A stretch of 64,000 nt of DNA from Alphaproteobacteria bacterium (GTDB taxonomy: Bacteria > Pseudomonadota > Alphaproteobacteria > 16-39-46). Positions 17,036 to 49,125 of this stretch are shown here, piece after piece (position 1 is the first letter of the stretch; the number at the start of each line of letters is the position of its first letter). Under the pieces are notes generated by a model. The model was not told where the DNA came from and did no database searches. It saw only the letters and a list, made by a program, of their open reading frames with translations. The stretch lies in assembly GCA_018401675.1 (NCBI GenBank), contig JAGYKM010000002.1:2871-66870 (forward strand), written 5' to 3'. Made by a program: the position numbers and the translations under genes.

Positions 17036-18558
17036 ATGCAATTTCAATTCTCAAGCGCGGCTCCGAAGATCACTTCAGAGACTCTTGTTGTAGGTGTTTT
17101 TGAAGACTCAGGGCTATCTACTGAGGGAAAAAATCTCAACACATCCATGAAAGAAACTCTTTCTCAAGCCATCTCCAAAAGAGGGTTCAAAGGAAAATTG
17201 GGAAAAACTCTTTCCTTGCTTCATCCCCGCGAGGCAGATGCAGATCAGATCATCCTCATTGGTTTGGGTAAACGCGATGAGTGCTCTCCACATTTATTGA
17301 CAGAAGCCGGTGGATTTTTGTATTCTGCGCTCACCCAAGAAAAAATAGAGACGGCTACTTTTCTTGTGGGAAGTGAATCCTTCAAGACCATCTCTTCTGG
17401 AGAAATTGCGGCTCATGTGGCCCAAGGCCTCTTATTGAAATCTTTCTATTTTGGAAAACACCAAACCAAGAAGGAAACCCCACCTATAAAAGCGTTAGCT
17501 TCTGTGAATTTTTATGTATCTTCTGAAGAAGAAGCTAAAACAGCGCGAATGCTTTTTGATCGGTTAGTGAGCATCTCGGAAGGGGTGTTTTATACCCGTG
17601 CGGTAACTTCTGAGCCCCCTAATATGCATTTAACTCAGAGACCTTTGCTGAGGGATTTGAAAGCTTCTCTTCATTGGGTATCAAGGTTGAAGTTCTTGAT
17701 AAAGCCCAAATGGAAAAACTGGGCATGGGATCTCTTTTAGGAGTGGCCCAGGGAAGTATAATTGATCCCCGCCTGGTCATTATGGAGTGGAATGGTGCGC
17801 TAGATAAAAACACGCCCCCTTTAGCCTTTATCGGAAAAGGCGTCACCTTTGATTCTGGAGGTTTATCCTTAAAATCTGCAGATGGCATGATGTCCATGAA
17901 GTATGATATGGGAGGCGCAGGCATTGTAGCAGGTCTTTTAAAAAGCCTCGCTTTAAGAAAAGCACCCGTCCGCGTGGTAGGCGTAGTCGGTTTGGTAGAA
18001 AATATGCCTTCTGGGTCCGCCCAACGTCCTGGCGATGTAGTCACCTCTATGTCGGGTCAAACCATTGAAGTATTGAACACAGACGCAGAAGGCAGACTTG
18101 TTCTTGCTGATGCCCTTTGGTACACTCAAGACCGCTTTAAACCCAAATTCATGATTGATCTGGCCACGCTTACAGGCGCCATCGTCGTTGCTTTGGGTGA
18201 AGAGTTCGCTGGTCTTTTCTCAAATAGCGATCTGCTCTCTGAACAGCTCATGGAAGCCGGTGCCCAAGTAGATGAAAAGGTATGGCGCTTTCCATTCCAT
18301 AAGAACTTTGATGCCCAGATGAAATCAACTATTGCCGATATGCAAAATATTGGTGGTGGCCGCGAGGCAGGCAGTATCACTGCCGCTATGTTTCTTCAAC
18401 GGTTTGTCAATAATGTTCCCTGGGTGCATCTTGATGTGGCAGGCGTGGTATGGGCTAATAAACAACGAGCTTTGTCTCAAAAAGGCGCTACAGGATATGG
18501 TGTCCGCCTTTTGAACCAATTTATTTCTGATTTTTACGAAGACCCCAAACACTCTTAG
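17036..18558 (+). pseudogene. pepA: leucyl (cytosol) aminopeptidase PepA, carrying a 1-nt frameshift
   Basis: The N-terminal domain is in ORF 16979-17740, with a likely start at 17036 after a GGAGG RBS. The M17 catalytic domain (NTDAEGRL, GGGREAG...) is in ORF 17674-18558. The frames join only if a C is restored at about 17635: observed actcagagacc, expected actccagagacc, giving LTPETFAE. Confidence 0.8.
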
Positions 18559-33373: not shown

Positions 33374-34622
33374 ATGAAAAGAATTAATAACTCGAAAAAG
33401 ACTCACCCTTTTTTTACCTTTTTAATCTTGGCTTTGATGCTTACTGTTCTCCATGCGCCTTCCTGGGCGGTAGTGAGCGATTTGTCTGACGCCTCAAATA
33501 AGCCCACTTCTGTAAGGCACCGGGCAGCATGGAAAAAGCGCTGGAAAGACTTCGAGCCCTTCACGCTGAAAGAGATCACTATTTTGCGTTGTATCCAGCG
33601 CTCTTTATAAAACAAGGTCCTATCCCTTTCGGTAATGATATTACCGTCGCCATTTCTCATATTACAGATGAGGACACTCGAGCATCCGTGGCAGCGCTGG
33701 CTCCTCGCCTTTTTTCAGCCGTCCCAGATGACCGATTTAATGGATCTGACCGATCGAGGATAATTAAGGCTCTTGGGGCGATTTAGGATGAAAAGACCCG
33801 AAGGTCTACTGCAGATTTGGCTCAACAGATCACGATCATCGCTGGTACTATGCATAAAGATGTCGTGATCGAGATCCTTGGAAAGACCCCCGACGAGGCA
33901 ACACGACAATCGGTTGTGACCCTGTCTATAGGCCTTTATACTGCCGATATGAGGACTTCGACCGCCGGCAGATTTTTTCCATATTCTCCCAGATGCCCGA
34001 CGAGGCAACACGACGCTCTGTTTCGGATTTAGCGCCTGCTCTTTTATCCAAATCTGAGGCTCGGTGTCCCTATGAGAAGATTCATATTGTTGAAGCTCTG
34101 AGCGCCATTGAAGATGAGCTAACCCGACGCACTATTGGGGAGCTCACCCTTGAACTCCTGAAGCTCCCTGATCGGGAACGGAGTATACCTGAAATAATGA
34201 GCAGGCTTTTGGCTATTCGCGATGGATCTGTGCGTAAACTGGGTGTGGAATTGCTCCCTGAGCTTTTTACACGCTCTTTGACCGCGGATCTGCATCCAGA
34301 TACCTTGCCTATTATTATCAATTTTCTCTGCCAGGTTCCTGATGAAGCCGAAAGGCATTCTATGATCGGCCCCTTTGCGAACCTATTCAATAACCTTCAC
34401 GAAAGTCGGTTTGTTATGATCATGCAATCTGTTGAAAATTTCAAAGATATATCCACAAAACTGTCGTTTCTCCGCCACGTTTCTTCTCTTAAAGGAAAGT
34501 ATATGAGCGAGCACGACACCTCTACACTTATATCTATCCTTCAGAAATTTCCAGATAGAGACAGTCGAGAATCTTTCGTAAACCAGGTCCTTTGGGACAA
34601 GGCAGGAGCTCTAACCTCATAA
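33374..34622 (+). pseudogene. fragmented gene for a secreted protein with ~36-aa HEAT/PBS-lyase-like repeats
   Basis: Four ORFs in three frames. They comprise a signal-peptide ORF (33374-33610), a frame +1 segment with an in-frame TAG at 33784-33786, and a shift to frame 0 near 33950-33990. The motif (I/L)..xPDEATR.SV..LAP.L recurs, including an exact 19-nt repeat cccgacgaggcaacacgac at 33888 and 33997. Confidence 0.6.
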
Positions 34623-35074: not shown

Positions 35075-37240
35075 GTGACCTGCCTTATGCCTGGCACTTT
35101 AAACACGCAAGAAAATATAAATATTTCCTTAAAAACGCCTTTGGGGGAAAATACCCTCATTTTAGAATCCTTGGAGGGTGAGGAGCATATATCACGCCCC
35201 TTCTCTTTCAGGCTCTCCATGTACGCCCACTCTCCCTCTCTTGACTTAAGTCGTTTGTTGGGAAAAGAAGCCACCGTCACCTTTAAGATTAAAGGGGACG
35301 TTCGATACCTCCATGGGATCATTGGCCAAGTTGCTCAAGGGCCAACGGTAGGACACCCTACTGCTCGAGAATCAGAGCGCACGTTGAAAGGGGCACAAGT
35401 AACTTACTATACAGCCTTTTTATACCCCTCTTTCTGGATAGAACACTTTAACCAAGATTGTCGTATATATCAAAACCAAGATACGCTGAAGATTGTTACA
35501 GAGCTCTTGAAAAAAAATAAAAAAATGCGCATTAAGGATCTTAGCCACCGCTTGGGACGCCAAGTCTTTGAGTACTGTGTGCGCTATAACGAGAGTACTT
35601 TTAATTTCGTCAGCCGGTTATTAGAAACCGCAGGGATTTACTATTTTTTCGAGCAAAAACATGACGAGCATACCCTTATTCTCAGTGATGGGGAATCGGG
35701 ATCAACTTACATTAGTGGACGTGAAATAGTTCCTTATATTCGCGAAAAATTTACCCGTCATATTCCCAATGCGGCCTTTGAGTGCTATTGGACCGAGTCC
35801 ACGGTTCCCGATGCTTTTTCTGCAGGGGACTTTAACTATGAAATACCCCACACCCGCTTGTTCTCAGAATCGAAAGGCCACGGCATTGGGGGAGAAGTGT
35901 ATGAGTATCCGGGAGGGTTCCAGAAGCAATCTATAGCTGAAAAAACCACCCCTTTACGCATTGAAGAAAGAGAATCTTTGCAAAAGATGCTAAGAGGGCA
36001 ATCTACGGTTTCCTCTTTTGCCCCTGGGTATAAATTCAAACTCAGAGGCCATGAACGCAAGGATATTAATACCACTTACATTATCCATTCCGTCCATCAC
36101 GAAGCCAGTTACGAAGAGGAAGAAGGCGGATTTTTATACAAAAATTCTTTTACGGCTTTTCCGGAAAAAACACGGTTCCGCCCGGATCTTAGAACGCCCC
36201 ATCCTAAGATCTATGGCTCTCAAACAGCTATAGTCACTGGAAAGAAAGATGAGGAAATATGGACCGATTCTTACAGTCGGATTAAGGTTAAGTTCCATTG
36301 GGATCGTTATGGTAAGGACGATGAAACCAGTTCCTGTTGGATCCGAGTGTCTACCGCGTGGGCTGGAGCTCACTGGGGGACCTTGTACACGCCTCGCATA
36401 GGCCAAGAAGTGGTGGTTAGTTTTTTAAATGGAGATCCAAATAAACCCTTGGTCACAGGCTCGGTATATAACGGTGTCCATAAACCGCCTTATCGTGCTG
36501 AAGACCCTACTATTGCTACGATGAAATCCAGCACCTCTAAAGGAGGCAAAGGATTTAATGAAATCCGTTTCCAAGACAAAAAGGACCATGAAGAGCTGTA
36601 TGTTCATGCTCAAAAAGATATGGCCATAGACATTATTAACAACAGAACCACCAAGATAGAAAAAGGTAATTGCACCACCACCATTGAAGCGGGAGATCGA
36701 ACGGTAACTTTGACTGGAAAAAAGAAGAAAGATGAAGATCCTGGAGGTCCTAAAAAGAGAGGAAATGATTTCTTAACTTTGGATACGGGAAGTCGCACTG
36801 TCAAACTCTTGGGTAAAGGTTCCGAAGAAGGATCCCATACGATGGATATTGCCAAGGGCAATCACACCTTATCCATTAAAAAGGGAAACGAGATCCGAAC
36901 CCTTACTGAAGGTAATCAGACCATCAAATTGGCCAAAGGCAATCAAACGGTTACTGTGAATGGCTCCCGGACTGAGTCTATTACCAAAGACTATACCTTG
37001 ACTGTTAAAGGCAATCTAATCATTGACGTAACGGGGAATATTACCTTAAAAGCCGGCCAGAATCTATTGGTCAAGGCGGGCCAAAACATCACCATGGACG
37101 CTGGTATGAGCTTTATAGGTAAAGCCGCAACCAATGTTACTTTCTCTGGCGCTGTCATGGCTCTCAAAGCCACAGGGACTGGAATTTATGAAGCCTCGGG
37201 TGTTCTCACTCTTAAAGGTTCTCTTGTAACCATTGTCTAA
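35075..37240 (+). CDS. vgrG: type VI secretion spike protein VgrG
   Basis: 721-aa ORF carrying the gp27-like N-domain, the hallmark gp5 OB-fold motif RIGQEVVVSFLNGDPNKPLVTGSVYNG, and a C-terminal beta-helical repeat region. The likely start is Met at 35087. There is no C-terminal effector extension. Confidence 0.9.
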   Translation: MTCLMPGTLNTQENINISLKTPLGENTLILESLEGEEHISRPFSFRLSMYAHSPSLDLSRLLGKEATVTFKIKGDVRYLHGIIGQVAQGPTVGHPTARESERTLKGAQVTYYTAFLYPSFWIEHFNQDCRIYQNQDTLKIVTELLKKNKKMRIKDLSHRLGRQVFEYCVRYNESTFNFVSRLLETAGIYYFFEQKHDEHTLILSDGESGSTYISGREIVPYIREKFTRHIPNAAFECYWTESTVPDAFSAGDFNYEIPHTRLFSESKGHGIGGEVYEYPGGFQKQSIAEKTTPLRIEERESLQKMLRGQSTVSSFAPGYKFKLRGHERKDINTTYIIHSVHHEASYEEEEGGFLYKNSFTAFPEKTRFRPDLRTPHPKIYGSQTAIVTGKKDEEIWTDSYSRIKVKFHWDRYGKDDETSSCWIRVSTAWAGAHWGTLYTPRIGQEVVVSFLNGDPNKPLVTGSVYNGVHKPPYRAEDPTIATMKSSTSKGGKGFNEIRFQDKKDHEELYVHAQKDMAIDIINNRTTKIEKGNCTTTIEAGDRTVTLTGKKKKDEDPGGPKKRGNDFLTLDTGSRTVKLLGKGSEEGSHTMDIAKGNHTLSIKKGNEIRTLTEGNQTIKLAKGNQTVTVNGSRTESITKDYTLTVKGNLIIDVTGNITLKAGQNLLVKAGQNITMDAGMSFIGKAATNVTFSGAVMALKATGTGIYEASGVLTLKGSLVTIV

Positions 37241-37272
37241 AACTGGAACGTGCTGTTTGGAGGGCCTTAATT

Positions 37273-40000
37273 ATGACTGATGACACCTTCCCCTTTATCC
37301 TAGTGGATGGATCGGGGTATATTTTTAGAGCTTACTTTGCTCTTCCATCCCTAACGCGACATGATGGAGGCAGCGTAGGTGCGGTTTTTGGTTTTACCAG
37401 CATGCTTCTTAAGCTTCTTGATTCACAAGGGCGCGATGGGTTGGTGGTTATATTTGATGCAGGCCGGAAAACCTTCCGGAATACCATTTATCCAGCTTAT
37501 AAGGAGAATCGCCCCCCACCCCCGGAGGATCTCATTCCTCAATTTCCCTTAACCCGTGTGGCGTGTGAGGCCTTGGGCGTTGAGTGGATTGAAAGTGATG
37601 GATTCGAAGCTGATGATTTAATCGCTTCTTATACTAAAAAAGCCCTCGCGTCGGGCAGAAAAGTGCGCATCATCTCCAGTGACAAGGATTTGATGCAGTT
37701 AATTCAGCCTGGGGTTACCTTTTTTGATCCCATGAAACAAAAAGTCGTCGATGAAGTAGGTGTATTGGAAAAATTTGGTGTGGCTCCGAATCAAGTCTGC
37801 GATGTTTTGTCTTTGATGGGAGACGCAAGTGATAATATACCCGGAGTGCCCGGCATTGGACCGAAAGGAGCCGGTCAGCTCATTCAGCGTTTTGGAAATT
37901 TAGACACTCTGTTAAGTCACATAGACCAAGTGGAGAAACCCTCCCACCGTAAAACTCTAGAAGAACATAAAGATAAAGCGTTGCTGTCTTACCAATTGGT
38001 GTGTCTGGATGCGGATGTTCCCTTGCCTATGCCCTTAAAGGATCTCAAAACCAAGCCTTTAGATATGAATTTATGTTTGTCCTTTTTTAAAGAACAAGGA
38101 TTTTCCTCTCTTATTCCTCGATTAGAAAGATATAGAGCAAAACTGGGGCAAGAAAGCATAACGGCCTCACCTGAAGGTGAGAAATATGCCCCTCAACTGG
38201 AGTGGACTTATGAACCTCTGGCCAACAAAAGTGAACTCGTTGCGGTTGTGGAAAAAGCTTCTAACGCCTCTTATCTCTCTTTGGTACTTGAGGACACCCA
38301 AGATGGGCAAAAAATTGCCTTTTGCTTCGAGGATAAAAATGCCTATAGCGTCCTCTTAACCAGTTCAGGAACGGGGGACCTTTTTACCCCCACTGCAGGA
38401 CAGCTAACTTTTAAAGAAGCTTTGAGCGTTTTAGCGCCCCTGCTCAAAGACAAGAGTCTTATGAAAGTCAGCCAAGACATCAAACAGATCCTTCTGGTTC
38501 TCGCCCCTTATGGCTTTTCCTTAGAACCTTTTCAGGATGTACTTCTTATGGGATACGATGTGTCAGGATGTAAAACTGGACAAACCTTGAGTAGTTTGGT
38601 TGATGACTACTTAGAGCTATCCTACGAGGATAAAAAGACCCTAGGCCTCATAGAGCCCGAATCTACGCCTTCCATGAGCCCAGATAAACGCGATGCCGCT
38701 CAGGCTTATTTGGGTCTTAAGCTGGTTTCTGTTCTTCAAAGTCGCCTCATTAAAGAAAAAGTGTCGAGTATATATGAGTGTATTGATAAGCCCGTTATCC
38801 CGGTTCTTGGAACTATGGAGCGGAAGGGCATACTTGTAAGCGCTGAGCGGCTCAAGCTCTTAGGCAATGAGTTTGGAGAAAAAATGAATTCCTTGGAAAC
38901 CCAAATTTATGCCCAAGCCGGGCATAGTTTTTCTATTGGGTCTCCCAAACAATTAGCGGAAGTTCTCTACAAGGAAATGGGCTTTGAAACGGGGTCTAAA
39001 GGCAAGTCTGGTGACTATAGTACCAAAGCAGATATACTTGAGGCACTGGCCGCCCAAGGGCATATTTTTCCCCAGCTGGTTTTACAGTGGCGCGCTTTGG
39101 CCAAATTAAAAAATACCTATGCCGATGGTCTTCTTGAGTACATCGATCCTACTGATTCTCGTATTCATACCTCAATGTCGTTGACGGCCACGGCCACTGG
39201 AAGGCTTGCTTCTTTTAACCCCAATCTTCAAAATATTCCCATACGTACCGAGGAAGGTATAAAAATTCGCAGTGCCTTTTGCGTTCCGGAAAATCATGTG
39301 CTCCTGTCTCTCGACTATTCTCAAATCGAGTTACGTCTTTTGGCACATATGGCTAATATTCCCTCCCTCATTGACGCTTTTTGGAAGAATCAAGATATTC
39401 ACGCCATTACCGCTGCCCACGTATTTGAGTGCCCACTGGACAAAGTAGATAAGGCCCTAAGACGAAAAGCTAAAATCATCAATTTTGGCATTATATATGG
39501 CATAAGTCCCTTTGGCCTTTCCCAACAACTAGGTATTTCAAGAACCGAGGCAAAAGAACACATAGATAGCTACTTTAAAACCTATCCGGGCATTCAAGAT
39601 TACATGGAAGCTAAAAAGGAGGAGGCGCGCCAAAAAGGATACGTAGAAACCTTATGGGGACGCCGATGCCGTATTACGGATATTCATAGCTCTAACGGAA
39701 TCAAAAGAAGCTTTGCAGAAAGACAAGCCATTAACGCGCCTTTACAAGGCAATCGCTGCGGATATTATTAAAAAAGCAATGATTCAAAGCTATGAATGGG
39801 AAAAGGAGAAACAAACAGCCCCGAGTTTGTTACTTCAAGTTCATGATGAGCTCTTATTCGAGGTTTCTGAAAAAGAGTTTTTAGTTTATGCAAATTCTTT
39901 AAAATCCATCATGGAAGGGGTTATTAAGCTCTCCGTTCCTTTGGTGGTTGACGTTTTCAAAGGAAATAATTGGGGCGCTTTGAGACCAGTAGCCTCTTGA
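37273..40000 (+). pseudogene. polA: DNA polymerase I, frameshifted near the C-terminus
   Basis: The 832-aa ORF holds the 5'-3' exonuclease domain, a degenerate 3'-5' exonuclease domain, and polymerase motifs A and B. The frame breaks at about 39750, inside the conserved INAPLQG|AADIIK region. Motif C (QVHDELLFEV) and the C-terminus are encoded in the overlapping 95-aa ORF 39713-40000. Confidence 0.8.
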
Positions 40001-40102: not shown

Positions 40103-40342
40103 ATGAACTTTTATAGTAGAAAAACAATGATCAAAATACTCTCAACAAGTCTTTGCTTAGCTTTGGCTGCTTTCACCTTGCCTGCTTTTAACGTTAGTGC
40201 GGATAAGTGCCATGGTAAATGTATCTGCGTAACAGGAAAACCATGTCCCGACAAGGACTGTAATTGCACCGAAAAAGGCGTGCAGGTTGCACGTTGTGAC
40301 TGTCTTACTAAAAAAGAAGAGGCTGAAAAAAAAGCCGCTTAA
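40103..40342 (+). CDS. small secreted cysteine-rich protein
   Basis: 79-aa ORF with a signal peptide (likely start at MIKILST). The ~45-aa mature region contains 11 Cys and ends in a K/E-rich tail. Confidence 0.5.
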   Translation: MNFYSRKTMIKILSTSLCLALAAFTLPAFNVSADKCHGKCICVTGKPCPDKDCNCTEKGVQVARCDCLTKKEEAEKKAA

Positions 40343-40352
40343 CCCTACAATA

Positions 40353-40388
40353 CCCCCCTTGGAAGGGTGCAAAACCGCTCCAAGGGGG
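40353..40388 (+). terminator. GC-rich hairpin after the Cys-rich ORF (possible terminator)
   Basis: A 9-bp stem (cccccttgg / ccaaggggg) is present. It lacks a clear U-tract. Confidence 0.3.
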
Positions 40389-40601
40389 TACTTATAAAAA
40401 ACTTTAAAACTAAAAAGATTTAGAGATTACGCCCATTATACCGTTACTATGGGATTTACTCATGTTCTAGGTGACAAAAGCGCTTCCTTATTGGTACCCC
40501 CCAAGACTAGTGCCGCTTTATAAGCAATAAATACAAAAAAGCCCGAAAGATAATGAACATGTGTAAAATCAAGTTTAGTCGTTTAAATTTTTGTTTATTT
40601 T

Positions 40602-41477
40602 ATGGGGACTCTTCTATGGGGACCGGTTGGCGGAACGGATCTAAAGCCCAAATCAACTTTTTTGATTTCATGTAATTACACCGCCAGTAAGTTTCTGGAC
40701 CTGCTCCATGATGACTTTTCTACAAAATTATTGCAAAAAAATCTCCCAGCCCTAAGCGACGTAATAGTTCCGCACTACCTTATAAAAGAAACATTGAAAA
40801 AGAACGGTATTTTCATTGGAGGTAGACCCAAAGGGAGCTATTGCGCACAAACGGGTTACACCGTGCCTATTATGGTTTTTTTCAACAAGAAAACCTTGAA
40901 GACTGAATCTCTTAATCTGTCAAAAGAAGATCTTCGAGCTATTGTTTTCAGCACCATTTTTCATGAAAATATGCCTATTACCGGACATAATGTGGGCCGT
41001 TATTGGACCATATATACTGGAGCCATAGTCGGATCAACCAAGAAAGGTATTTCGAATTATACGAACATTCCCTATAGCCGTGTCAAACAAACCAGTGAGA
41101 ATCCCAAAGCTTCCTTTGAAAATGCGAACTTCATCCGAGATCTGATTATTGATGATAATGTAGACTTTGTGTTTGTTCCCTATCCTCTCAATAATATGTT
41201 TTTTCATACAGAAGAATCAGATGCAATAGGTATAGCCACCGTTGAAGGCAAGATGCCAAATGACCTAAACTACCCTATTGTAGATTATATACTGTATGTT
41301 TGCGGACAAAACGCAGATAATCAGCTCGTTGACTCGGTAGCTCAAATCCTAAATGACAGAGATATCCAACATAAACTGAAAGAATTTGGGGTTTTCCCCA
41401 TAGAGGATAACCAAAAGGCTCTGGCAGAAAAGTTAGCGCTAGAATGTCCTGATCTTTATGCAAGAAGCGTTTATTAG
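40602..41477 (+). CDS. hypothetical protein (orphan; candidate T6SS-associated cargo)
   Basis: 291-aa ORF in an AT-rich segment between vgrG/polA and tssB. No family was recognised by eye. Confidence 0.45.
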   Translation: MGTLLWGPVGGTDLKPKSTFLISCNYTASKFLDLLHDDFSTKLLQKNLPALSDVIVPHYLIKETLKKNGIFIGGRPKGSYCAQTGYTVPIMVFFNKKTLKTESLNLSKEDLRAIVFSTIFHENMPITGHNVGRYWTIYTGAIVGSTKKGISNYTNIPYSRVKQTSENPKASFENANFIRDLIIDDNVDFVFVPYPLNNMFFHTEESDAIGIATVEGKMPNDLNYPIVDYILYVCGQNADNQLVDSVAQILNDRDIQHKLKEFGVFPIEDNQKALAEKLALECPDLYARSVY

Positions 41478-41647: not shown

Positions 41648-41721
41648 TGGAGCGGGCGAGGGGAATCGAACCCCCGTCGTAAGCTTGGGAAGCTTCTGCT
41701 CTACCATTGAGCTACGCCCGC
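41648..41721 (-). tRNA. tRNA-Gly (anticodon CCC)
   Basis: The reverse complement reads GCGGGCGTAGCTCAATGGTAGAGCAGAAGCTTCCCAAGCTTACGACGGGGGTTCGATTCCCCTCGCCCGCTCCA. It is near-identical to E. coli tRNA-Gly(CCC), with anticodon loop TTCCCAA. Confidence 0.9.
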
Positions 41722-41738: not shown

Positions 41739-41814
41739 TGGTGTCCCCAACGGGATTCGAACCCGTGTTGCCGCCTTGAAAGGGCAGTGTCCTAGGCCTC
41801 TAGACGATGGGGAC
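41739..41814 (-). tRNA. tRNA-Glu (anticodon TTC)
   Basis: The reverse complement reads GTCCCCATCGTCTAGAGGCCTAGGACACTGCCCTTTCAAGGCGGCAACACGGGTTCGAATCCCGTTGGGGACACCA. It resembles E. coli tRNA-Glu, with anticodon loop CTTTCAA. Confidence 0.9.
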
Positions 41815-42324: not shown

Positions 42325-42903
42325 ATGAGTGAAAGTATCCAACATCTTCTTGAAAAGATTCGTCCCCCTCGCGTCCAAATTACTTATGACGTGGAAATAG
42401 GTGATGCAATCATAATGAAACAATTGCCATTTACCGTTGGTGTACTGGCAGACTTGGCAGGGGTTCCGGATCCTAATTCTCCTCCTGTACCGCTCAAAGA
42501 TAGACAATTCGATTCTATTGATCGGAGCACTTTTGATGTGATTATGGGCAAAATTGGTCCACGTTTACCACTTCAAGTGCAAAACGTGATGACGCCTAAT
42601 GGAGGGCCTTTAGAGGTGCTTTTGAATTTCAAAAGCATGGAAGATTTCAATCCAATTAACGTGGCAAGACAAGTACCAGAAGTCGCTCAAGTGCTTCAAG
42701 CCAGAGAACTTCTTGCCAACTTGCTCACCAAGCTTGTAGGAAATCAACCTCTTGAAACCCTTCTTGAGTCTGTTTTGGCCACCCCTGATTTACCAAAAAG
42801 CCTTTTGGCCCAAGCTCAAGCAGCAATCAAAAAGAGCCAACAAGCTCCTGCTAAAGCTGACGCGAAACCAGGTCAAACACCACCTGCACCCTCTTCAAAA
42901 TAA
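42325..42903 (+). CDS. tssB: type VI secretion sheath small subunit TssB (VipA)
   Basis: 192-aa ORF. PRVQITYDVEIGDAI..KQLPFTVGVLADLAG...PL.DR.F..IDR..FD is a strong match to the TssB/DUF770 consensus. Confidence 0.9.
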   Translation: MSESIQHLLEKIRPPRVQITYDVEIGDAIIMKQLPFTVGVLADLAGVPDPNSPPVPLKDRQFDSIDRSTFDVIMGKIGPRLPLQVQNVMTPNGGPLEVLLNFKSMEDFNPINVARQVPEVAQVLQARELLANLLTKLVGNQPLETLLESVLATPDLPKSLLAQAQAAIKKSQQAPAKADAKPGQTPPAPSSK

Positions 42904-42940
42904 TAATCAAAATACATAATACGTTCAGAGGAGTAATACA

Positions 42941-44404
42941 ATGGCTGATCCAACCGCAACCCCCACAGGTACGAGCGACCTTTTAACGCAATTCGTTACG
43001 ACTGGAAATCTCGCCAGAGATCCCGCTCAAATTCAATATGCTTATCAAATGCTGCAAGAGTTTGCTAACCAAGTATTGACCCAAACTGATGCAACTCCTA
43101 AGAATCCGGCAGCTTTTCTCTCAGCTCAAATTGCTCGACTTGATGGCATTTTATCAGATCAGCTGAATGAGATTATCCATCAGCCCGCTTTCTTAAAGCT
43201 TGAGGGCTCATGGAGAGGTCTTAATTACCTCGTGATGAACACCTTTACAGGCACCGAATTGAAAATCAAGTTGCTTAATGTGAGCAAAACTGATCTTTTG
43301 AATGACTTAGAAAATGCGGTTGAGTTCGACCAAAGTCAACTATTCAAAAAAGTTTACGAAGCGGAATACGGCACTTTGGGTGGCGAACCCTATTCTTGCC
43401 TCATTGGTGACTATGAATTTGGTCCTTTGCCGCAAGATATGTCCTTACTATCAAAGATTGCGGGCGTGGCTTCTGCAGCTTTTGCTCCCTTCTTTGCCGC
43501 AGCCAGTCCTACCATGTTCAATCTAACCACCTACATGGATCTGGGTGTCCCTATGGACTTAGCGCAGATTTTTGAAAACGTGGACTACATTCAATGGAAC
43601 GCCTTTCGTGAAACCGACGAATCTCGCTATGTGGTGCTCACGCTCCCACGTGTCTTGATGAGGCTTCCGTATGGCCCGAATACTGTCCCTGTAAAAGGCA
43701 TCAATTTCATCGAAAAAGTAAACGCTGATGATAATGCTGATTTTTGTTGGGGCAATACTGCCTATACCATGGGTCAGCGGATTACCAATGCGTTCTTCCT
43801 TTACAACTGGACCGCAGCTATTCGCGGTGTGGATGGTGGTGGATTGGTGGAAAATCTACCTGTCTATACCTATCAAACCACCGAAGGAGATATGGCCGTT
43901 AAATGTCCCACAGAGATTGCCATAACTGACCGGAGAGAGTTTGAATTGAGTAACCTTGGCTTTATCGCCCTATGTTATTGCAAAGGCACCAATACGGCGG
44001 CCTTCTTTGGAGCGCAAACAACTCAAAAACCAGTTGTTTACAACACCAATGAAGCCAATGCCAATGCCAACCTCTCTGCACGCATTACCTACATGATGGC
44101 AGCTTGCCGATTTGCTCATTATATCAAATGTATGATGCGAGATAAAATTGGTACCTTTATGACTCACGGGAATGTACAAGACTATCTTCAAACCTGGATT
44201 GCGAATTATGTGTTGCTCAATGACAATGCGCCTGAATCACTCAAAGCAGCTTACCCCTTGAGAGAAGCTCGGGTAGATGTGGTAAGTGTGCCCAGTGACC
44301 CAGGTAAATATAAAGCAACGGTTTTTCTAAGGCCTCATTTCCAATTAGAAGAACTACAAGCCTCCTTGCGGTTGGTAGCAACGCTACCCCCACCAGCAGG
44401 CTAA
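42941..44404 (+). CDS. tssC: type VI secretion sheath large subunit TssC (VipB)
   Basis: 487-aa ORF immediately after tssB. Conserved TssC blocks (FLKLEGSWRGLNYLV, ..PRVLMRLPYG, GN..Y) are present. Confidence 0.9.
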   Translation: MADPTATPTGTSDLLTQFVTTGNLARDPAQIQYAYQMLQEFANQVLTQTDATPKNPAAFLSAQIARLDGILSDQLNEIIHQPAFLKLEGSWRGLNYLVMNTFTGTELKIKLLNVSKTDLLNDLENAVEFDQSQLFKKVYEAEYGTLGGEPYSCLIGDYEFGPLPQDMSLLSKIAGVASAAFAPFFAAASPTMFNLTTYMDLGVPMDLAQIFENVDYIQWNAFRETDESRYVVLTLPRVLMRLPYGPNTVPVKGINFIEKVNADDNADFCWGNTAYTMGQRITNAFFLYNWTAAIRGVDGGGLVENLPVYTYQTTEGDMAVKCPTEIAITDRREFELSNLGFIALCYCKGTNTAAFFGAQTTQKPVVYNTNEANANANLSARITYMMAACRFAHYIKCMMRDKIGTFMTHGNVQDYLQTWIANYVLLNDNAPESLKAAYPLREARVDVVSVPSDPGKYKATVFLRPHFQLEELQASLRLVATLPPPAG

Positions 44405-44529
44405 GCGGTTAGATCTTGGAGCCTTAGGAGAGGAGGTGTCGTCAATGACCTCCCCTCCTAGACTCCCCCTACAAAAAGAAAAATAGAAGGTACATAGTGC
44501 CTAAGTGATACTTTGGGAGACATAAAACA

Positions 44530-45063
44530 ATGATAGATAGCTTTGGAAGAGACGTCGGAACCATTGATAATAATATTATTGTGGTAGGAGCGTGCTCAAA
44601 AAATTCTTTACTTAAGGGAAGTACCACCTACAAAGGATATAAAGATCACTTTAGGCTACGTGGATTCCCTACCGTATCCGTCCTCAACCCTTTCAGGCCT
44701 ACGAGAGAGCAAGCCCGTATTCTGACCAACCCTGTTATTATGCCTATTACTCTGGAAGTGGTTATCGGTAGTTCTGTTCCTTACGCTTTTCAAGCGCTTT
44801 GTGACGGAAGTAATCTTGGAACCATGACCTTAACTGAACTCATCTCCGATGGGAATAACCTTCAACCGCTTCGTACTTTAAAGCTTGAAAATACCTATGT
44901 GACCTTCTGGAAGCTTCTAGGCGGCAGAGATGGCGGAATTTGTCAATTCACTGTAACCTTCGATGTCATGACTCAAACACGTGCCTCTGTCTCTCAAACA
45001 CAAAAGAAACAGGGTAAGACGGCAGCTACAACCAATCAATCCACAGGACAGCCTAAATCCTAA
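44530..45063 (+). CDS. divergent Hcp-like (TssD) tube protein, paralog 1
   Basis: 177-aa ORF after tssC. Its central and C-terminal blocks (ITLEVVIGSSVPYAFQALCDGSNLGTMTLTEL ... TLKLENTYVTFWKL..GG.DGGICQFTVTFDV) align by eye to Hcp blocks (DKSSPNLMLAC..GKH...A.LT ... L.I.L..VLVSSVS......E.V.LNF..V). Confidence 0.55.
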   Translation: MIDSFGRDVGTIDNNIIVVGACSKNSLLKGSTTYKGYKDHFRLRGFPTVSVLNPFRPTREQARILTNPVIMPITLEVVIGSSVPYAFQALCDGSNLGTMTLTELISDGNNLQPLRTLKLENTYVTFWKLLGGRDGGICQFTVTFDVMTQTRASVSQTQKKQGKTAATTNQSTGQPKS

Positions 45064-45121
45064 TAAAACCACATAAAGCCACCGACATCAAAACCTAACG
45101 ACCCAAGAAAGGGCTACAATA

Positions 45122-45742
45122 ATGACAAAAACAACCCCCTTTTCCCCACTATATGCAACTCAGCATTTCGAGCAGTCTGGGTTTACCCATAGCGATGAAG
45201 ATAACTTCAGAGCTCTATTGGAGTCTCTCATAGCCTTAGAAACCGCAAACCTTGGCGAGGCTACCAACGAATCCGCTTCTATTCTTGTAACGATTAAACA
45301 GATTCCAGGAACCGCTAAGGCTGGAAAAATATCCAAAGCCATCGAAGCCTACGGATACTATATTGCTGGACGTAAAAAATCCGTAGTGGGTGAAAATGGC
45401 CAACTCCTCTCTTCTGGCCATGTGGTTTTATGGGATTTGTGTATTATTTTTCCAGATAATTCTTTTGTCGAATCTGCCATCCAGGAAACCTTTACGGGAA
45501 AAAACGTAGGGGACGTAAAGCTGGCTTACCTTAGAAATGATGGAAAAACTGCACAACCTGCCTTTGAGATTGATCTCTCAAATGCGAGAATATCAGCCTT
45601 GAGAGAAACTGAAACTGGTACATCAATGAGTTTTGGGTTTGATTCTATTAAAATTACCTACTTCCCAGTAGGTGACAAGGGCGCAGCCTCAGGAAAAGTG
45701 GCTGCTGGATTTGATCTCAGCAAAAACGCGCAGAAGAAATAG
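45122..45742 (+). CDS. divergent Hcp-like (TssD) tube protein, paralog 2
   Basis: 206-aa ORF. ESAIQETFTGKNVGDVKLAYLR ... AFEIDLSNARISAL...SMSFGFDSIKITYFPVGDKGA matches the Hcp C-terminal pattern. Confidence 0.55.
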   Translation: MTKTTPFSPLYATQHFEQSGFTHSDEDNFRALLESLIALETANLGEATNESASILVTIKQIPGTAKAGKISKAIEAYGYYIAGRKKSVVGENGQLLSSGHVVLWDLCIIFPDNSFVESAIQETFTGKNVGDVKLAYLRNDGKTAQPAFEIDLSNARISALRETETGTSMSFGFDSIKITYFPVGDKGAASGKVAAGFDLSKNAQKK

Positions 45743-45775
45743 TGCATAGACACTGGCGTTAGTAATTTAAGGAGA

Positions 45776-46306
45776 GTGCTTATGGGAGATCTCGTGCCTA
45801 TAGACTCTCCTTTTCTGCCTGACGATTCTCCCCTTTCGGGAGATTGGACATCCTTGGGAGGAAGCGTTCCTCTTTTTGATTTGCTCACCACCCAGCTCTC
45901 CACCTCCAGCAAAACACCCGCAGCCTCTCGTGTCTTCTCAAAAGAAGAGTTGCGTGCCTCTATCATCTATGAAATCCAACTCCTTCTGAACGCACGGGTT
46001 AAAATTCCCCTTGCCCTTTATACGCAAATTCTTGAAACAAATCATACAACTGGTTTTCCTGAACTATACGGGATTCCTGATTTTTCAGCTTTTGATGCTT
46101 CGGATATGGGTACATGGGCCCTCTATGCAGATTATATAAAAAATGCCATCATCACTTATGAACCTCGATTGATAAATGTGGATGTAACTTTCGAGAAATT
46201 TGAAGCCTCGTCCCAAGTTATCTTAGCGTATTTAAGTGGAGACGTGATTTACCAGTCCATGATTGAGCCTTTCTCGTTTTCTGTCAAAATATCTAAATCT
46301 TCCTAA
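45776..46306 (+). CDS. tssE: type VI secretion baseplate protein TssE (gp25-like)
   Basis: 176-aa ORF. LFDLLT......EL..SI..E.QLLLNAR....LALY .. I..YEPRL is the GPW/gp25 signature. Confidence 0.8.
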   Translation: MLMGDLVPIDSPFLPDDSPLSGDWTSLGGSVPLFDLLTTQLSTSSKTPAASRVFSKEELRASIIYEIQLLLNARVKIPLALYTQILETNHTTGFPELYGIPDFSAFDASDMGTWALYADYIKNAIITYEPRLINVDVTFEKFEASSQVILAYLSGDVIYQSMIEPFSFSVKISKSS

Positions 46307-46315
46307 AGGGCCTTT

Positions 46316-48127
46316 ATGCAAAATAAACTTTTTGATCTCCTGACTTACTATGAAAAGGAGATGGCATATCTAAAAAATATGGGATCGCAATTCTCCTCCC
46401 AGTACCCCAAAGTTGCCCAGCGCCTTACCTTGGGAGAAGGAGACGTGTCAGATCCTCATGTAGAGAGGCTCATCCAGTCCTTTGCCTTTCTGACTGCCTT
46501 TTTACAACAAGACATTCACAATGAGTTTCCGCGGATTGCGAATGCCCTTCTTACGAATATCTATCCTCAATTTAATCATCCCATTCCTCCCACTTCCGTA
46601 GCTCAATTTCAAGTAGATCCCAAACAAGGGAAACTCACTTCAGGCTTTACTGTTGCAAAAGATAAACCTTTATTTGCGCGGTCTGAATCTGGAGTAACCT
46701 GTAAGTTTCATACCGGCTATGATGTGGAACTATGGCCTATCCAAATAGAGGACATATCCATTGACCTCACCCGTAATTATTCGTTTAACCAGTTTTTCTC
46801 CCCTCACTCTCACTGTTTAAAAATCCGCTTATCCACATTTGCAGATTCTTTTTCTGAGTTAACCCTCGATGCCCTTCAGTTTTATATCAATGGACATAGA
46901 ACCACTCAAAGTGCCCTTTATGAAGGCATCATTGCGCCTGATCTCCCCTGTGCCGTAGCCTTAGACTTATCTACCGAAGCGCAAATAATCCCTAAGATGG
47001 TCCCTCGGCCGGATGGCTTCTCTGAGAACGAAACCATTTTCCACATGCCATCCCAAGCCCATCCTGCATATACTTTACTGCTTGAATATTTCTTCTGCCC
47101 GGATAAATTCTTTTTCTTTACTCTCGAGGGATTTAAGCAACTTGCTCCCGCCAAAACCATAGATATTCTAGTCCCCATTTCCAATCCTGATACTTTGCTC
47201 AAACTGGGCGTTGATACTTCCTCTTTGTTATTAGGGTGTACTCCTATAATCAATTTATTTAAAAAAATATCAGATCCAATCCAAGTTTCCCATCTTCAAA
47301 GCGAATATAATCTGATTCCCGATCAACGCTTAGAGATGGTTACAGAGATCTATTCGGTGCTTTCAGTATCGGGGATTGAAGCAGGTCAGGTCACTCCAAG
47401 AACCTTAACCCCCTATTTTGCCTTTGATCAGAAGGCACAAGCTACTGAACAAAAGGCCTTTTGGATCTCAAGACGAACCCCCACCGTCCGCCCTGGCTTG
47501 CCTGGCACAGACATATTAGTATCCTTTGTGGATTTTAATTTTGATCCCACCGTTCCCCAGACGGAAACCATTTATGCCGAAATCCTATGTACCAATAGAA
47601 TTCTTGCATCTCAACTTCCCGCAGGCGCTATTCTCGAAGTAGACGATACGATCCCCACTACCCAGATTACTTGTTTGAAAATTCCCTCGTCTCCTAAATA
47701 CCCTCCTGAAGGTGGAGCCACTTTATGGAGCCTAGTTTCTCAACTTTCTTTAAATCAGATTTCATTGTCGAACTCTCCAGGAAGCTTAGAAGCGTTCAAA
47801 AGCTTGATGCGCGTTTACGCTCAATTCGGATCCCCTTCCGACTCACCTGAGGTGGAATCCTTGGTAAAAATGTCCTGCGACTATACCGTGCAGCGCATGG
47901 GAACAGACGCCTGGCGGAATTTTATACGGGGCATATCCATAACCCTTACTTTTGATGAAAGATATACAGGCGGGACCTCAATCTTTCTTTTTGCAAGCAT
48001 TCTGAACCAATTTTTTGGGCTTTATGTCTCTTTAAACTCTTTTACTAAACTCTCCATCCAAAAGTATAACCAGGAAGGAATCTGGAAGGAATGGGCACCT
48101 ATCGCCGGGGGTCAACCCCTCCTGTAG
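46316..48127 (+). CDS. tssF: type VI secretion baseplate protein TssF
   Basis: 603-aa ORF. The N-terminus (YYEKEMAYLKN.G..F...YP.VA.RL.L...D..DP.VERL..SFAFL) matches TssF/ImpG. Confidence 0.85.
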   Translation: MQNKLFDLLTYYEKEMAYLKNMGSQFSSQYPKVAQRLTLGEGDVSDPHVERLIQSFAFLTAFLQQDIHNEFPRIANALLTNIYPQFNHPIPPTSVAQFQVDPKQGKLTSGFTVAKDKPLFARSESGVTCKFHTGYDVELWPIQIEDISIDLTRNYSFNQFFSPHSHCLKIRLSTFADSFSELTLDALQFYINGHRTTQSALYEGIIAPDLPCAVALDLSTEAQIIPKMVPRPDGFSENETIFHMPSQAHPAYTLLLEYFFCPDKFFFFTLEGFKQLAPAKTIDILVPISNPDTLLKLGVDTSSLLLGCTPIINLFKKISDPIQVSHLQSEYNLIPDQRLEMVTEIYSVLSVSGIEAGQVTPRTLTPYFAFDQKAQATEQKAFWISRRTPTVRPGLPGTDILVSFVDFNFDPTVPQTETIYAEILCTNRILASQLPAGAILEVDDTIPTTQITCLKIPSSPKYPPEGGATLWSLVSQLSLNQISLSNSPGSLEAFKSLMRVYAQFGSPSDSPEVESLVKMSCDYTVQRMGTDAWRNFIRGISITLTFDERYTGGTSIFLFASILNQFFGLYVSLNSFTKLSIQKYNQEGIWKEWAPIAGGQPLL

Positions 48128-49125
48128 CCGAGCTCTTATTTCTGAAAACTTCAGAATTTCAATTTGTTCAAGCTGTCAGGATTTTACAAAAACTGCGTCC
48201 GAATAGTGCTCCTTTGGGGGAATCATCACTCCCCAACGATGATCCGGTGATTTTTAAATCCCATGTCTCTTTTGCGTTTAAAAGTAGTGATCTTTATACA
48301 CTCACCCAAAACGCTTCCGGCCCCCCTCACTTAAGCATAAATTTTATGGGGATTGCAGGAAACTCTGGCCCCCTCCCCACACCCTATGTCCAAACACTGA
48401 TCAATCGCTCTAATCAGTTTGATAATGCTTTTAGAGACTTTCTGGATATTTTCAATCACCGCTTGATCTCTCTTTTGTATGTTATCAGAAAAAAATACCG
48501 GCTGGGCATCGACGAAATACCCGCAGAAGAAACTTCAGTAGGGGCCATTCTTAAGGCCCTCATTGGATTAGGTTTTAGAAATTCGGCCTTTACGCAAAGT
48601 TTCCCAATTCCGGTAAAAAGCCTTCTTAATTTTGCAGGATTATATTGGCCCATCCAACGCGCCTCAGTGGGCTTAGTTAAAATCCTTAAAACTTATTTTA
48701 ATGTGCCCGTTTCTATTCAGCAATTCACAGGAGAATGGCTGCAAATTCCCCTCGGTCAACAGTCCCGTCTCTCGGCCACCGGCCCGTTTAATCAGCTAGG
48801 CAAAAATCTTACTCTAGGATCACGATGTTGGGATAAAACCACCTCTTTTACCCTTTGCCTAGGCCCTCTCTCCTTAGAACAATTTACGTCTTTTCTTCCC
48901 ATTGGCCCTTATTGCAAAAACTTATGTGCCCTTACTTCCTTTTACTCCCGTCCCGATAAAGCCTTTAATGTGCAACTCACCATCGCTCCTGACGAAGTGC
49001 CTTCGTTAATATTAGGGACTAAATCCTATCTAGGTTGGAAAACTTGGCTTAAAACCCAACCCTTTGGACCCAACCCAGGCATGGTTTTCCTCTCTCAAGA
49101 GCGCCTTCCTCTCTTAGGGGCCTAA
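48091..49125 (+). CDS. tssG: type VI secretion baseplate protein TssG
   Basis: 344-aa ORF overlapping the tssF end. The N-terminal F.FVQAVRILQ motif matches TssG/ImpH. Confidence 0.8.
   Translation: MGTYRRGSTPPVAELLFLKTSEFQFVQAVRILQKLRPNSAPLGESSLPNDDPVIFKSHVSFAFKSSDLYTLTQNASGPPHLSINFMGIAGNSGPLPTPYVQTLINRSNQFDNAFRDFLDIFNHRLISLLYVIRKKYRLGIDEIPAEETSVGAILKALIGLGFRNSAFTQSFPIPVKSLLNFAGLYWPIQRASVGLVKILKTYFNVPVSIQQFTGEWLQIPLGQQSRLSATGPFNQLGKNLTLGSRCWDKTTSFTLCLGPLSLEQFTSFLPIGPYCKNLCALTSFYSRPDKAFNVQLTIAPDEVPSLILGTKSYLGWKTWLKTQPFGPNPGMVFLSQERLPLLGA

What the first reader, a model, noticed from the sequence alone, without database searches (positions are those of the whole stretch)
35075..40000. vgrG is uncoupled from the T6SS core by polA and orphan genes
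The spike gene lies about 5 kb upstream of tssB. The housekeeping gene polA is wedged between them, along with two orphan ORFs and two tRNAs on the opposite strand. This arrangement suggests that the T6SS arrived, or was rearranged, as tRNA-associated modules, or that vgrG is an orphan spike island. The VgrG has no C-terminal effector domain and there is no adjacent PAAR, so any cargo must be separately encoded.
Basis: seen in the sequence. Interest (0 to 1): 0.55.

Follow-up and report, generated by a model that had tools for sequence, protein, structure and literature searches.

The report
Stand-alone T6SS spike gene beside polA
In this Holosporales-like (protist-endosymbiont-type) alphaproteobacterium the type VI secretion spike gene vgrG sits next to the housekeeping gene polA, an old neighbourhood shared with several relatives, and the sheath/baseplate genes happen to lie 5 kb away; scattered T6SS genes are already known in this group, so the finding is ordinary.

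Summary
The order is vgrG (35087-37240), polA (37273-40000), two unassigned ORFs, tRNA-Gly(ccc) and tRNA-Glu(ttc) on the minus strand, then tssB (42325) through tssG (49125). VgrG has no effector domain and no PAAR gene lies nearby.

polA is not wedged into a T6SS cluster.
- vgrG-polA adjacency recurs in two other deep lineages (L004/L005; L006-8/L014), which group with the window in a VgrG tree.
- The same tRNA-Gly/tRNA-Glu pair lies downstream of polA in a relative with no T6SS genes around it (L009).
- The seven-gene tssB-G block stands alone in a different neighbourhood in another relative (L011).
- There is no integrase, no att-like repeat and no compositional shift.

T6SS genes dispersed over four or more loci, including a separate vgrG locus, are already published for this group (PMC8163844). 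This is therefore a new member of a known kind, and interest is low.

Side notes:
- polA carries a 1-nt frameshift before catalytic motif C.
- Several other housekeeping genes in the window are also broken.
- The 291-aa "orphan" has a PstS-like periplasmic binding-protein fold, so it is not obvious T6SS cargo.

The parts
33374..34622 (+). Decayed gene upstream of vgrG. It encodes a signal-peptide-bearing repeat protein (repeat motif I..AL.AI.DE.TR.S) broken into four ORFs by two frameshifts and one in-frame TAG (33784-33786).
   Evidence: ORF list, sequence, six-frame translation, 32-nt direct repeat D1. No Pfam or NCBIfam hits. No homologue in the relatives' vgrG loci.
35087..37240 (+). vgrG / tssI, the T6SS spike: a core form with a gp27-like domain, a gp5 OB-fold and a beta-helix, and no effector extension.
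   Evidence: Pfam Phage_GPD, Phage_base_V and Gp5_trimer_C. TIGR03361 at 529 bits. PDB VgrG1 matches at E 1e-100 and gp5 beta-helix matches for residues 592-715. Full-length alignment with clade relatives.
37273..40000 (+). polA (DNA polymerase I), a native housekeeping gene. Its reading frame is broken by a 1-nt insertion at about 39749-39752, between the QG[S/T]AADIIK motif and motif C (HDE).
   Evidence: Pfam and NCBIfam. Translations. tblastn shows the two pieces abut without loss of residues. DNA comparison with L006, L009 and L014.
40103..40342 (+). Small ORF (79 aa) with an N-terminal hydrophobic signal-like segment and many Cys residues, followed by a GC-rich hairpin at about 40355-40390. 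Lineage-specific and of unknown role.
   Evidence: Sequence. No Pfam or NCBIfam hit. No match in any fetched locus.
40602..41477 (+). 291-aa ORF of a rare family with a PstS-like type-2 periplasmic binding-protein fold. It occupies the position held by a TLC ATP/ADP translocase gene in relatives.
   Evidence: 12 homologues among 1.84 billion representatives. Homologues carry signal peptides. AlphaFold2 pLDDT 86.8. Foldseek best hits are PstS proteins 4n13, 1twy and 4gd5, E ~2e-9, TM 0.53-0.67. TLC sits next to polA in L006, L009 and L014.
41648..41721 (-). tRNA-Gly (anticodon CCC), part of the ancestral polA-linked backbone.
   Evidence: ARAGORN, Rfam. Orthologue downstream of polA in L009/L010, 73 of 74 nt identical.
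41739..41814 (-). tRNA-Glu (anticodon TTC), part of the ancestral polA-linked backbone.
   Evidence: ARAGORN, Rfam. Orthologue in L009 in the same order and on the same strand.
42325..49125 (+). Seven-gene T6SS sheath/tube/baseplate module: tssB 42325-42903, tssC 42941-44404, hcp-like 44530-45063, hcp-like 45122-45742, tssE 45776-46306, tssF 46316-48127, tssG 48091-49125. It has no clpV or vgrG at its end and is followed by cvpA and radA on the minus strand.
   Evidence: Pfam. The same seven-gene block occurs in L011 and the same order as far as tssF in L012, whose contig ends there; both have different flanks. In the outgroup L003 the block continues with clpV-vgrG-amidase.

Best explanation
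This is the dispersed type VI secretion system of a Holosporales/Paracaedibacter-like intracellular alphaproteobacterium.

vgrG is a stand-alone core spike gene. It has been linked to the housekeeping gene polA since the common ancestor of a subclade. The stretch polA, then a variable slot (a TLC translocase in relatives, two lineage-specific ORFs here), then tRNA-Gly(ccc) and tRNA-Glu(ttc), is native chromosomal backbone.

The tssB-tssC-hcp-hcp-tssE-tssF-tssG block is a separate conserved module. Its neighbours differ between relatives, and in this genome it happens to lie just beyond the tRNA pair. The 5-kb proximity of vgrG and tssB is therefore a product of genome rearrangement, not of polA inserting into a cluster or of a tRNA-targeted island.

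Inferred mechanism: VgrG is made from its own locus, possibly co-transcribed with polA (32-bp gap, no terminator-like site). It assembles in trans as the trimeric spike on the TssEFG(K) baseplate. Hcp tube and TssBC sheath then polymerise. PAAR, cargo, TssK/A, the membrane complex and ClpV must be encoded outside this window.

Shown: gene identities, order, conserved synteny, and the absence of island signatures. Inferred: trans-assembly, co-transcription, and the direction of the rearrangements.
For: - Family assignments for vgrG, polA and tssB-G.
- vgrG-polA adjacency in L004 and L005, L006/7/8 and L014.
- In a VgrG neighbour-joining tree these loci and the window form one clade. Its sister is L001/L002, where vgrG is followed by DUF2000 among housekeeping genes. 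The outgroup L003 has the canonical tssB...tssG-clpV-vgrG-amidase order.
- polA-TLC-tRNA-Gly(ccc)-tRNA-Glu(ttc) in L009, with near-identical tRNAs in the same order and on the same strand. polA-TLC also occurs in L006 and L014.
- The tssB-G seven-gene block stands alone among fab, gmk and secB genes in L011.
- In L012 (TssC 94% identical) there is no tRNA in the 633 bp upstream of tssB, and DNA homology to the window stops about 125 bp upstream.
- GC and GC3 of vgrG, polA and tssB-G lie within the range of the surrounding housekeeping genes.
- No tRNA-derived or flanking direct repeats.
- Closest named homologues are Paracaedibacteraceae, Finniella, Caedimonas and Holosporales.
- Midha et al. 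2021 report T6SS core genes at four or more loci, with vgrG separate, in these families (PMC8163844).
Against: - Only a 64-kb window was available, so the rest of the T6SS (tssK/A/J/L/M, clpV, PAAR) was not seen. That the system is complete is an assumption.
- The tRNA-Glu-tssB junction is not corroborated by any other assembly, so it could be lineage-specific or, less likely, a mis-join.
- The window is roughly equidistant from the other vgrG-polA lineages. The polarity (whether the nearby tssB-G position is ancestral or derived) rests on few genomes and one neighbour-joining tree.
- The published Holosporales scheme separates [tssG-tssF] from [tssB-tssC-hcp] and places ywqK upstream of vgrG. 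Here tssB-G are contiguous and no YwqK-like gene was found, so the layout is not identical.
Confidence: 0.72

Rival explanations
1. tRNA-associated genomic island. The tssB-G module (and/or vgrG) was acquired horizontally and integrated at the tRNA-Gly/tRNA-Glu pair.
For: The T6SS module abuts a tRNA pair. Its flanks differ in L011 and L012. The 40.0-41.6 kb stretch next to the tRNA-Gly 3' end has slightly lower GC (0.39-0.40) and lineage-specific ORFs where relatives have TLC.
Against: - No integrase next to the tRNAs. The only tyrosine recombinase in the window (26567-27499) has the N-terminal SAM-like plus catalytic domain pair typical of Xer-type recombinases, and it lies 14 kb away.
- No direct repeats of tRNA 3' ends.
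- The tRNA 3' ends face polA, not the T6SS block.
- GC, GC3 and codon usage of tssB-G are indistinguishable from the backbone.
- The closest TssC homologues come from the same Holosporales-like clade as the closest PolA and VgrG homologues, which fits vertical descent.
Confidence: 0.08
2. Relic of a once-contiguous T6SS cluster. vgrG and tssB-G were adjacent, and polA, the orphan ORFs and the tRNAs were later inserted between them.
For: vgrG and tssB-G lie on the same strand only 5 kb apart. The outgroup L003 has them in one cluster.
Against: - In L003 vgrG lies downstream of tssG-clpV, not upstream of tssB.
- vgrG-polA occurs in L006 without T6SS core genes within 10 kb downstream.
- polA-tRNA-Gly-tRNA-Glu occurs in L009 with no T6SS genes.
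- Insertion of an essential housekeeping gene plus two tRNAs into an operon is less parsimonious than relocation of T6SS modules.
Confidence: 0.1
3. Functional coupling. vgrG and polA form a conserved operon, so that spike production and Pol I expression are co-regulated.
For: The adjacency is conserved on the same strand in three deep lineages. In the window the gap is 32 bp, with no terminator-like site between the genes.
Against: - The spacer varies widely: about 210 bp in L006, about 310 bp with a 70-aa ORF in L004, and about 900 bp with an opposite-strand ORF in L005.
- L001/L002 have vgrG without polA, and L009 has polA without vgrG in the 3 kb upstream that its contig holds.
- No biological link between Pol I and the T6SS spike is known (my own knowledge).
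- The promoter and terminator scans are at background level.
Confidence: 0.06
4. Assembly artefact. The contig joins two unrelated regions between tRNA-Glu and tssB.
For: The tRNA-Glu-tssB junction is the only one not seen in another assembly. The closest relative, L012, loses homology about 125 bp upstream of tssB. The sequence appears to come from a draft genome assembly held at NCBI (215,756-bp contig, unnamed) and has several frameshifted genes.
Against: There are no repeats at the junction that would cause a mis-join. Composition is continuous across it. The identical proteins sit on one 215,756-bp NCBI contig.
Confidence: 0.04

Closest known systems
Dispersed T6SS of Holosporales (Bodocaedibacteraceae, Paracaedibacteraceae, Caedimonadaceae), as described for Ca. 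Bodocaedibacter vickermanii (Midha et al. 2021, PMC8163844)
   Same: T6SS core genes are split over several chromosomal loci. vgrG sits at its own locus, away from tssB-tssC-hcp. The nearest homologues of TssC, VgrG and PolA come from this group. Relatives carry a TLC ATP/ADP translocase, which fits an intracellular lifestyle.
   Different: Here tssB-C-hcp-hcp-E-F-G are contiguous, whereas the paper lists [tssG-tssF] and [tssB-tssC-hcp] as separate loci. No YwqK-like gene lies upstream of vgrG; there is a decayed repeat-protein gene instead. vgrG is linked to polA, a microsynteny not mentioned in the passages of that paper retrieved by term search.
Orphan vgrG islands of free-living Proteobacteria (vgrG with adaptor, PAAR, effector and immunity genes away from the main cluster; my own knowledge)
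   Same: A vgrG gene outside the main T6SS operon that is expected to work in trans with it.
   Different: No downstream effector, immunity, adaptor (DUF4123, DUF1795, DUF2169) or PAAR gene was found. The downstream neighbour is polA. It is probably not an auxiliary spike but the clade's regular vgrG locus, although other vgrG copies outside the window cannot be excluded.
Canonical alphaproteobacterial T6SS-i cluster, as in MAG GCA_018662925.1 (L003)
   Same: Same gene order tssB-tssC-hcp-hcp-like-tssE-tssF-tssG. TssC is 70% and VgrG 49% identical.
   Different: In L003 the operon continues with clpV-vgrG-amidase. In the window it stops at tssG, vgrG lies 5 kb upstream of tssB beside polA, and clpV is absent from the 64-kb window.

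Membership tests
VgrG / TssI spike protein | N-terminal gp27-like (Phage_GPD) domain | tested here: met
   PF05954, E 3.6e-65, residues 36-345.
VgrG / TssI spike protein | gp5-like OB-fold followed by a beta-helical C-terminal spike | tested here: met
   PF04717 residues 398-465 and PF22178 residues 482-548. Residues 592-715 match gp5 beta-helix chains 9gtr_q, 6p20_A and 4jj2_A.
VgrG / TssI spike protein | Score above the curated family cut-off | tested here: met
   TIGR03361 at 529.4 bits against 186.35; TIGR01646 at 355.7 bits against 121.8.
Evolved (effector-carrying) VgrG | Additional C-terminal enzymatic or toxin domain beyond the beta-helix | tested here: not met
   No further Pfam or NCBIfam domain. 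The C-terminus aligns end to end with relatives' beta-helix repeats.
vgrG-PAAR-effector island | Adjacent PAAR, adaptor, effector or immunity genes | tested here: not met
   ORFs of 60 aa or more on both strands in 33.2-35.3 kb and 40.0-42.5 kb have no PAAR, DUF4123, DUF1795 or DUF2169 hit. The downstream gene is polA. ORFs shorter than 60 aa were not scanned.
Type VI secretion system (T6SS-i) core set | TssB, TssC, Hcp, TssE, TssF, TssG and VgrG present | tested here: met
   Pfam hits, all above gathering cut-offs.
Type VI secretion system (T6SS-i) core set | TssK, TssA, TssJ/L/M membrane complex and ClpV present | tested here: inconclusive
   None found among the window's ORFs of 100 aa or more that were scanned. 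No ClpV by tblastn. The rest of the genome could not be examined. Relatives in the literature carry them at other loci.
tRNA-integrated genomic island | Integrase next to the tRNA and direct repeats derived from the tRNA 3' end | tested here: not met
   No integrase within 14 kb. No such repeats in 33-50 kb.
tRNA-integrated genomic island | Composition or codon usage deviating from the host backbone | tested here: not met
   vgrG GC 0.440, polA 0.447, tssB-G 0.429-0.454, against 0.41-0.48 for most backbone genes.
Holosporales dispersed-T6SS layout (PMC8163844) | vgrG at a locus separate from tssB-tssC-hcp | tested here: met
   Separated by polA, two ORFs and two tRNAs. In relatives L001, L002 and L006 no T6SS core gene lies within the fetched flank of vgrG.
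Holosporales dispersed-T6SS layout (PMC8163844) | ywqK-family gene immediately upstream of vgrG; tssG-tssF separate from tssB-tssC-hcp | tested here: not met
   No Pfam hit for the ORFs upstream of vgrG, here or in L004, L005 and L006. tssB to tssG are contiguous.
DNA polymerase I (PolA) | 5'-3' exonuclease plus family-A polymerase domains in one intact ORF | tested here: inconclusive
   The domains are present and NF004397 scores 892.7 bits against 720. A 1-nt insertion separates the last ~85 residues, including motif C. No PF01612 3'-5' exonuclease hit. Sequencing error and a real mutation cannot be told apart without reads.

The most novel reading that the evidence does not exclude
The vgrG-polA pair, conserved on the same strand across lineages with only ~53-64% protein identity, might be a real transcriptional unit that ties T6SS spike supply to Pol I expression in these endosymbionts. 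In this genome it would come with a Pol I truncated before motif C: polymerase-dead but keeping the 5'-nuclease. That would be an unrecognised link between a secretion-system component and DNA-repair or replication gene expression.
Probability: 0.05. Interest if true: 0.45.

Novelty: new member of a known kind. Interest (0 to 1): 0.15.

Why it matters
It matters little beyond annotation.
- It shows that an apparently odd "split" T6SS is the normal, already published, dispersed layout of Holosporales-type endosymbionts.
- It shows that polA and the tRNA pair are native backbone, not insertions.
- The conserved vgrG-polA(-TLC)-tRNA-Gly-tRNA-Glu microsynteny is a handy marker for a still unnamed subclade of these bacteria.
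- The broken polA, uvrD, pepA and pepP genes flag either genome decay or assembly error. Anyone using this assembly should resolve which.

Tried and rejected
- Exact look-ups of the window's VgrG (both candidate starts, and the identical database protein P0001) found no contig on record. The source genome's wider context could not be fetched.
- The first genome-contig scan, with PolA alone, found nothing.
- The second scan, with a VgrG alignment, gave only two close loci (L013 = L002, and L014) among 80. The rest were at most 43% identical, mostly from Acidobacteriota and other distant groups.
- A metagenome scan with an Hcp-like alignment gave only three distant loci and no new context.
- tblastn of relatives' flanking proteins against the window found nothing. 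The proteins tried were TLC, ClpV, the amidase, the 182/190-aa and 667/376-aa proteins upstream of vgrG, DUF2000, and the L011 downstream proteins. The flanks are therefore lineage-specific.
ORFs of 60 aa or more were scanned individually instead.
- Promoter and terminator scans were at shuffle background and say nothing reliable about co-transcription.
- Rfam found only the two tRNAs in 33-50 kb.
- A programmed +1 frameshift in polA was considered and rejected. The site is in frame in all relatives and has no recognisable slippery or stimulatory context (and my own knowledge of prfB-type sites).

Full report
**What is there**

- An ORF at 35075-37240 (probable ATG start at 35087, 717 aa) is a bona fide VgrG/TssI. 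It matches Phage_GPD, Phage_base_V and Gp5_trimer_C. It scores 529 bits on TIGR03361 against a cut-off of 186. It matches solved VgrG1 structures at E ~1e-100.
- Thirty-two bases later polA begins at 37273. It has the 5'-3' exonuclease and family-A polymerase domains and scores 893 bits on NF004397 against a cut-off of 720.
- Next come a 79-aa ORF (40103-40342) and a 291-aa ORF (40602-41477). Neither has a Pfam or NCBIfam hit.
- tRNA-Gly(ccc) (41648-41721) and tRNA-Glu(ttc) (41739-41814) lie on the minus strand.
- From 42325 to 49125 lies a compact block: tssB, tssC, two Hcp-like genes, tssE, tssF and tssG.
- The vgrG stop and the tssB start are 5,084 bp apart.
- The C-terminal ~125 residues of VgrG match only gp5-type beta-helix and align end to end with relatives. 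There is no effector domain.
- No ORF of 60 aa or more around vgrG, or between polA and tssB, has a PAAR or adaptor hit.

The rest of the window is housekeeping:
- Upstream: leuS, a weak holA match (below NCBIfam's cut-off) and a recombinase of the phage-integrase family with the domain pair typical of Xer.
- Downstream: cvpA, radA, mlaEF and priA.
- No tssK, tssA, tssJ/L/M or clpV was found.

**Who it is**

The identical proteins sit on one unnamed 215,756-bp contig from an NCBI assembly. The closest named homologues of VgrG, PolA and TssC come from five sources:
- Candidatus Paracaedibacteraceae
- Paracaedimonas
- Finniella
- Caedimonas
- "Holosporales bacterium" MAGs

Relatives carry a TLC ATP/ADP translocase next to polA, a hallmark of obligate intracellular bacteria. 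The window therefore comes from a Holosporales-like endosymbiont-type alphaproteobacterium.

**The synteny test**

*vgrG-polA adjacency is conserved.* Both genes lie on the same strand in each of the following:
- L004 and L005, two contigs from run ERR14789960.
- L006/L007/L008, from GCA_035428145.1, GCA_027308845.1 and SRR5352529. NCBI names this PolA "Alphaproteobacteria bacterium 16-39-46".
- L014, MAG ZH-15may19-125.

VgrG is 58-64% and PolA about 53% identical to the window.

In a neighbour-joining tree of VgrG:
- These loci and the window form one clade.
- The sister clade is L001/L002. There vgrG is also a lone gene among housekeeping genes, but it is followed by DUF2000 and not by polA.
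- The outgroup L003 has the canonical operon tssB-tssC-hcp-hcp-tssE-tssF-tssG-clpV-vgrG-amidase.

*polA and the tRNA pair belong together.* In L009/L010 polA is followed by TLC and then tRNA-Gly(ccc). L009, the longer contig, continues with tRNA-Glu(ttc). The tRNAs are in the window's order and on the same strand, with 73 of 74 and about 72 of 76 nt identical. No T6SS gene lies in the 10 kb downstream, and there is no vgrG in the 3 kb upstream that the contig holds. polA-TLC also occurs in L006 and L014.

*The tssB-G block is a separate unit.*
- In L011 (GCA_018242545.1, TssC 72% identical) the same seven genes sit between fabD-fabG-acpP-fabF-mltG-gmk/secB and two large unknown genes. There is no vgrG, clpV, polA or tRNA.
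- In L012 (TssC 94% identical) the 633 bp upstream of tssB hold no tRNA, and DNA homology to the window stops about 125 bp upstream of tssB.
- In L006 nothing T6SS-like lies within 10 kb downstream of polA.

**No island signatures**
- GC, GC3 and codon usage of vgrG, polA and tssB-G fall within the spread of the neighbouring housekeeping genes.
- No direct repeats derive from the tRNAs or flank the block.
- The only tyrosine recombinase has the domain pair typical of Xer-type enzymes and lies 14 kb away.
- The tRNA 3' ends point toward polA, not toward the T6SS block.
- The one slightly AT-richer stretch (40.0-41.6 kb) holds the two lineage-specific ORFs, in the slot where relatives have TLC.

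**Interpretation**
- polA and the tRNA pair are native backbone.
- vgrG has been a stand-alone gene beside polA since the ancestor of this subclade.
- The sheath/tube/baseplate block is an independently placed module that happens to lie next to the tRNA pair in this genome.

This matches what is already published. Midha et al. (2021) state that in Bodocaedibacteraceae, Paracaedibacteraceae and Caedimonadaceae the T6SS core genes lie at four or more loci, including a separate [ywqK-vgrG] locus (PMC8163844). A 2025 review notes that the T6SS is conserved in almost all Holosporales genomes (PMC11909080).

Three details differ here:
- tssB-G are contiguous.
- No YwqK-like gene precedes vgrG.
- The polA linkage is not mentioned in the passages of that paper retrieved by term search.

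Functionally (inferred), VgrG is supplied in trans to a baseplate built from TssEFG plus components encoded elsewhere. PAAR and cargo are also encoded elsewhere.

**The "orphan" ORFs**

The 291-aa protein belongs to a very rare family, with 12 homologues among 1.84 billion representatives. Most homologues have signal peptides. An AlphaFold2 model (pLDDT 86.8) best matches PstS-type periplasmic phosphate-binding proteins (4n13, 1twy, 4gd5; E ~2e-9; TM 0.53-0.67). It is therefore a divergent solute-binding-fold protein and not an evident T6SS effector.

The 79-aa ORF encodes a Cys-rich, signal-peptide-like product of unknown role.

**Things seen in passing**

*polA is frameshifted.* Relatives read CAAGGAAGCGCTGCGGAC (QGSAAD) where the window reads CAAGGCAATCGCTGCGGAT. 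One extra base separates the catalytic motif C (HDE) from the rest. The closest relative's PolA (P0128, 71% identical, 911 aa) is intact.

*Other genes in the window are also broken*:
- uvrD
- pepA
- pepP

*A repeat-protein gene upstream of vgrG is decayed.* Its product would carry a signal peptide. It has two frameshifts and an in-frame TAG at 33784-33786. The TAG is a substitution, so at least some of the decay is real and not indel error.

*The polA break is unresolved.* Whether it is real cannot be decided without reads.

**Verdict**

Noticed in passing
window 39713-39771 (site ~39749-39752): polA is split by a 1-nt insertion inside the conserved QG[S/T]AADIIK motif, so the last ~85 residues, including catalytic motif C (HDE), are out of frame. 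All relatives, including one at 71% identity, are intact. It is either a real inactivating mutation (leaving the 5'-nuclease) or an assembly error.
   Followed up: partly
window 37273-39771 (PolA residues ~290-520): The window's PolA and its closest relative P0128 have no Pfam 3'-5' exonuclease (PF01612) hit. All ~53%-identical relatives do have one, although protein length is unchanged. The proofreading-like domain appears degenerate in this lineage.
   Followed up: no
window ~4050-6197 (uvrD), 16979-18558 (pepA), 9730-11534 (pepP): Three further housekeeping genes are split into adjacent ORFs by frameshifts. uvrD has two shifts within about 60 nt, near 4290-4360. About five broken genes in 64 kb suggests genome decay or indel-prone sequencing.
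   Followed up: partly
window 33374-34622: A gene for a repeat protein (~35-aa I..AL.AI.DE.TR.S units) with a signal peptide lies directly upstream of vgrG. It is broken by two frameshifts and an in-frame TAG (33784-33786). The TAG is a substitution, which argues that some pseudogenisation is genuine.
   Followed up: partly
window 44530-45063 and 45122-45742: Two tandem, divergent Hcp-like genes both score just above the Pfam T6SS_HCP cut-off (27.8 and 28.0 bits against 23.5). The pair is conserved in L003, L011 and L012. A 2025 review says Holosporales seem to lack a main tube component, so that may be a problem of annotation sensitivity.
   Followed up: partly
window 40602-41477: The 291-aa "orphan" has a PstS-like type-2 periplasmic binding-protein fold (AF2 pLDDT 86.8; Foldseek TM up to 0.67). 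It belongs to a very rare family (12 homologues in 1.84 billion representatives). Its N-terminus lacks the signal peptide seen in homologues.
   Followed up: yes
window 40103-40390: A 79-aa ORF with a signal-peptide-like N-terminus and nine Cys residues, followed by a GC-rich hairpin. It has no homologue in any fetched locus.
   Followed up: no
window 19902-24056 (minus strand): A 1,384-aa ORF with no Pfam or NCBIfam hit at all, and codon usage typical of the genome. It is a large uncharacterised protein of the kind often proposed as a secreted effector in endosymbionts.
   Followed up: no
L006 12907-14367; L009 5920-7398; L014 5204-6661: Relatives carry a TLC ATP/ADP translocase gene immediately downstream of polA. 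The window has no TLC gene or remnant anywhere in its 64 kb, and two lineage-specific ORFs occupy that slot.
   Followed up: partly
L004 129-677; L005 1302-1874; L006 4247-7421: Lineage-specific genes without Pfam hits lie directly upstream of vgrG in relatives. L004 and L005 have a conserved 182/190-aa protein (75% identical to each other). L006 has two paralogous proteins of 667 and 376 aa. These are possible adaptors or cargo, and none has a counterpart in the window.
   Followed up: partly
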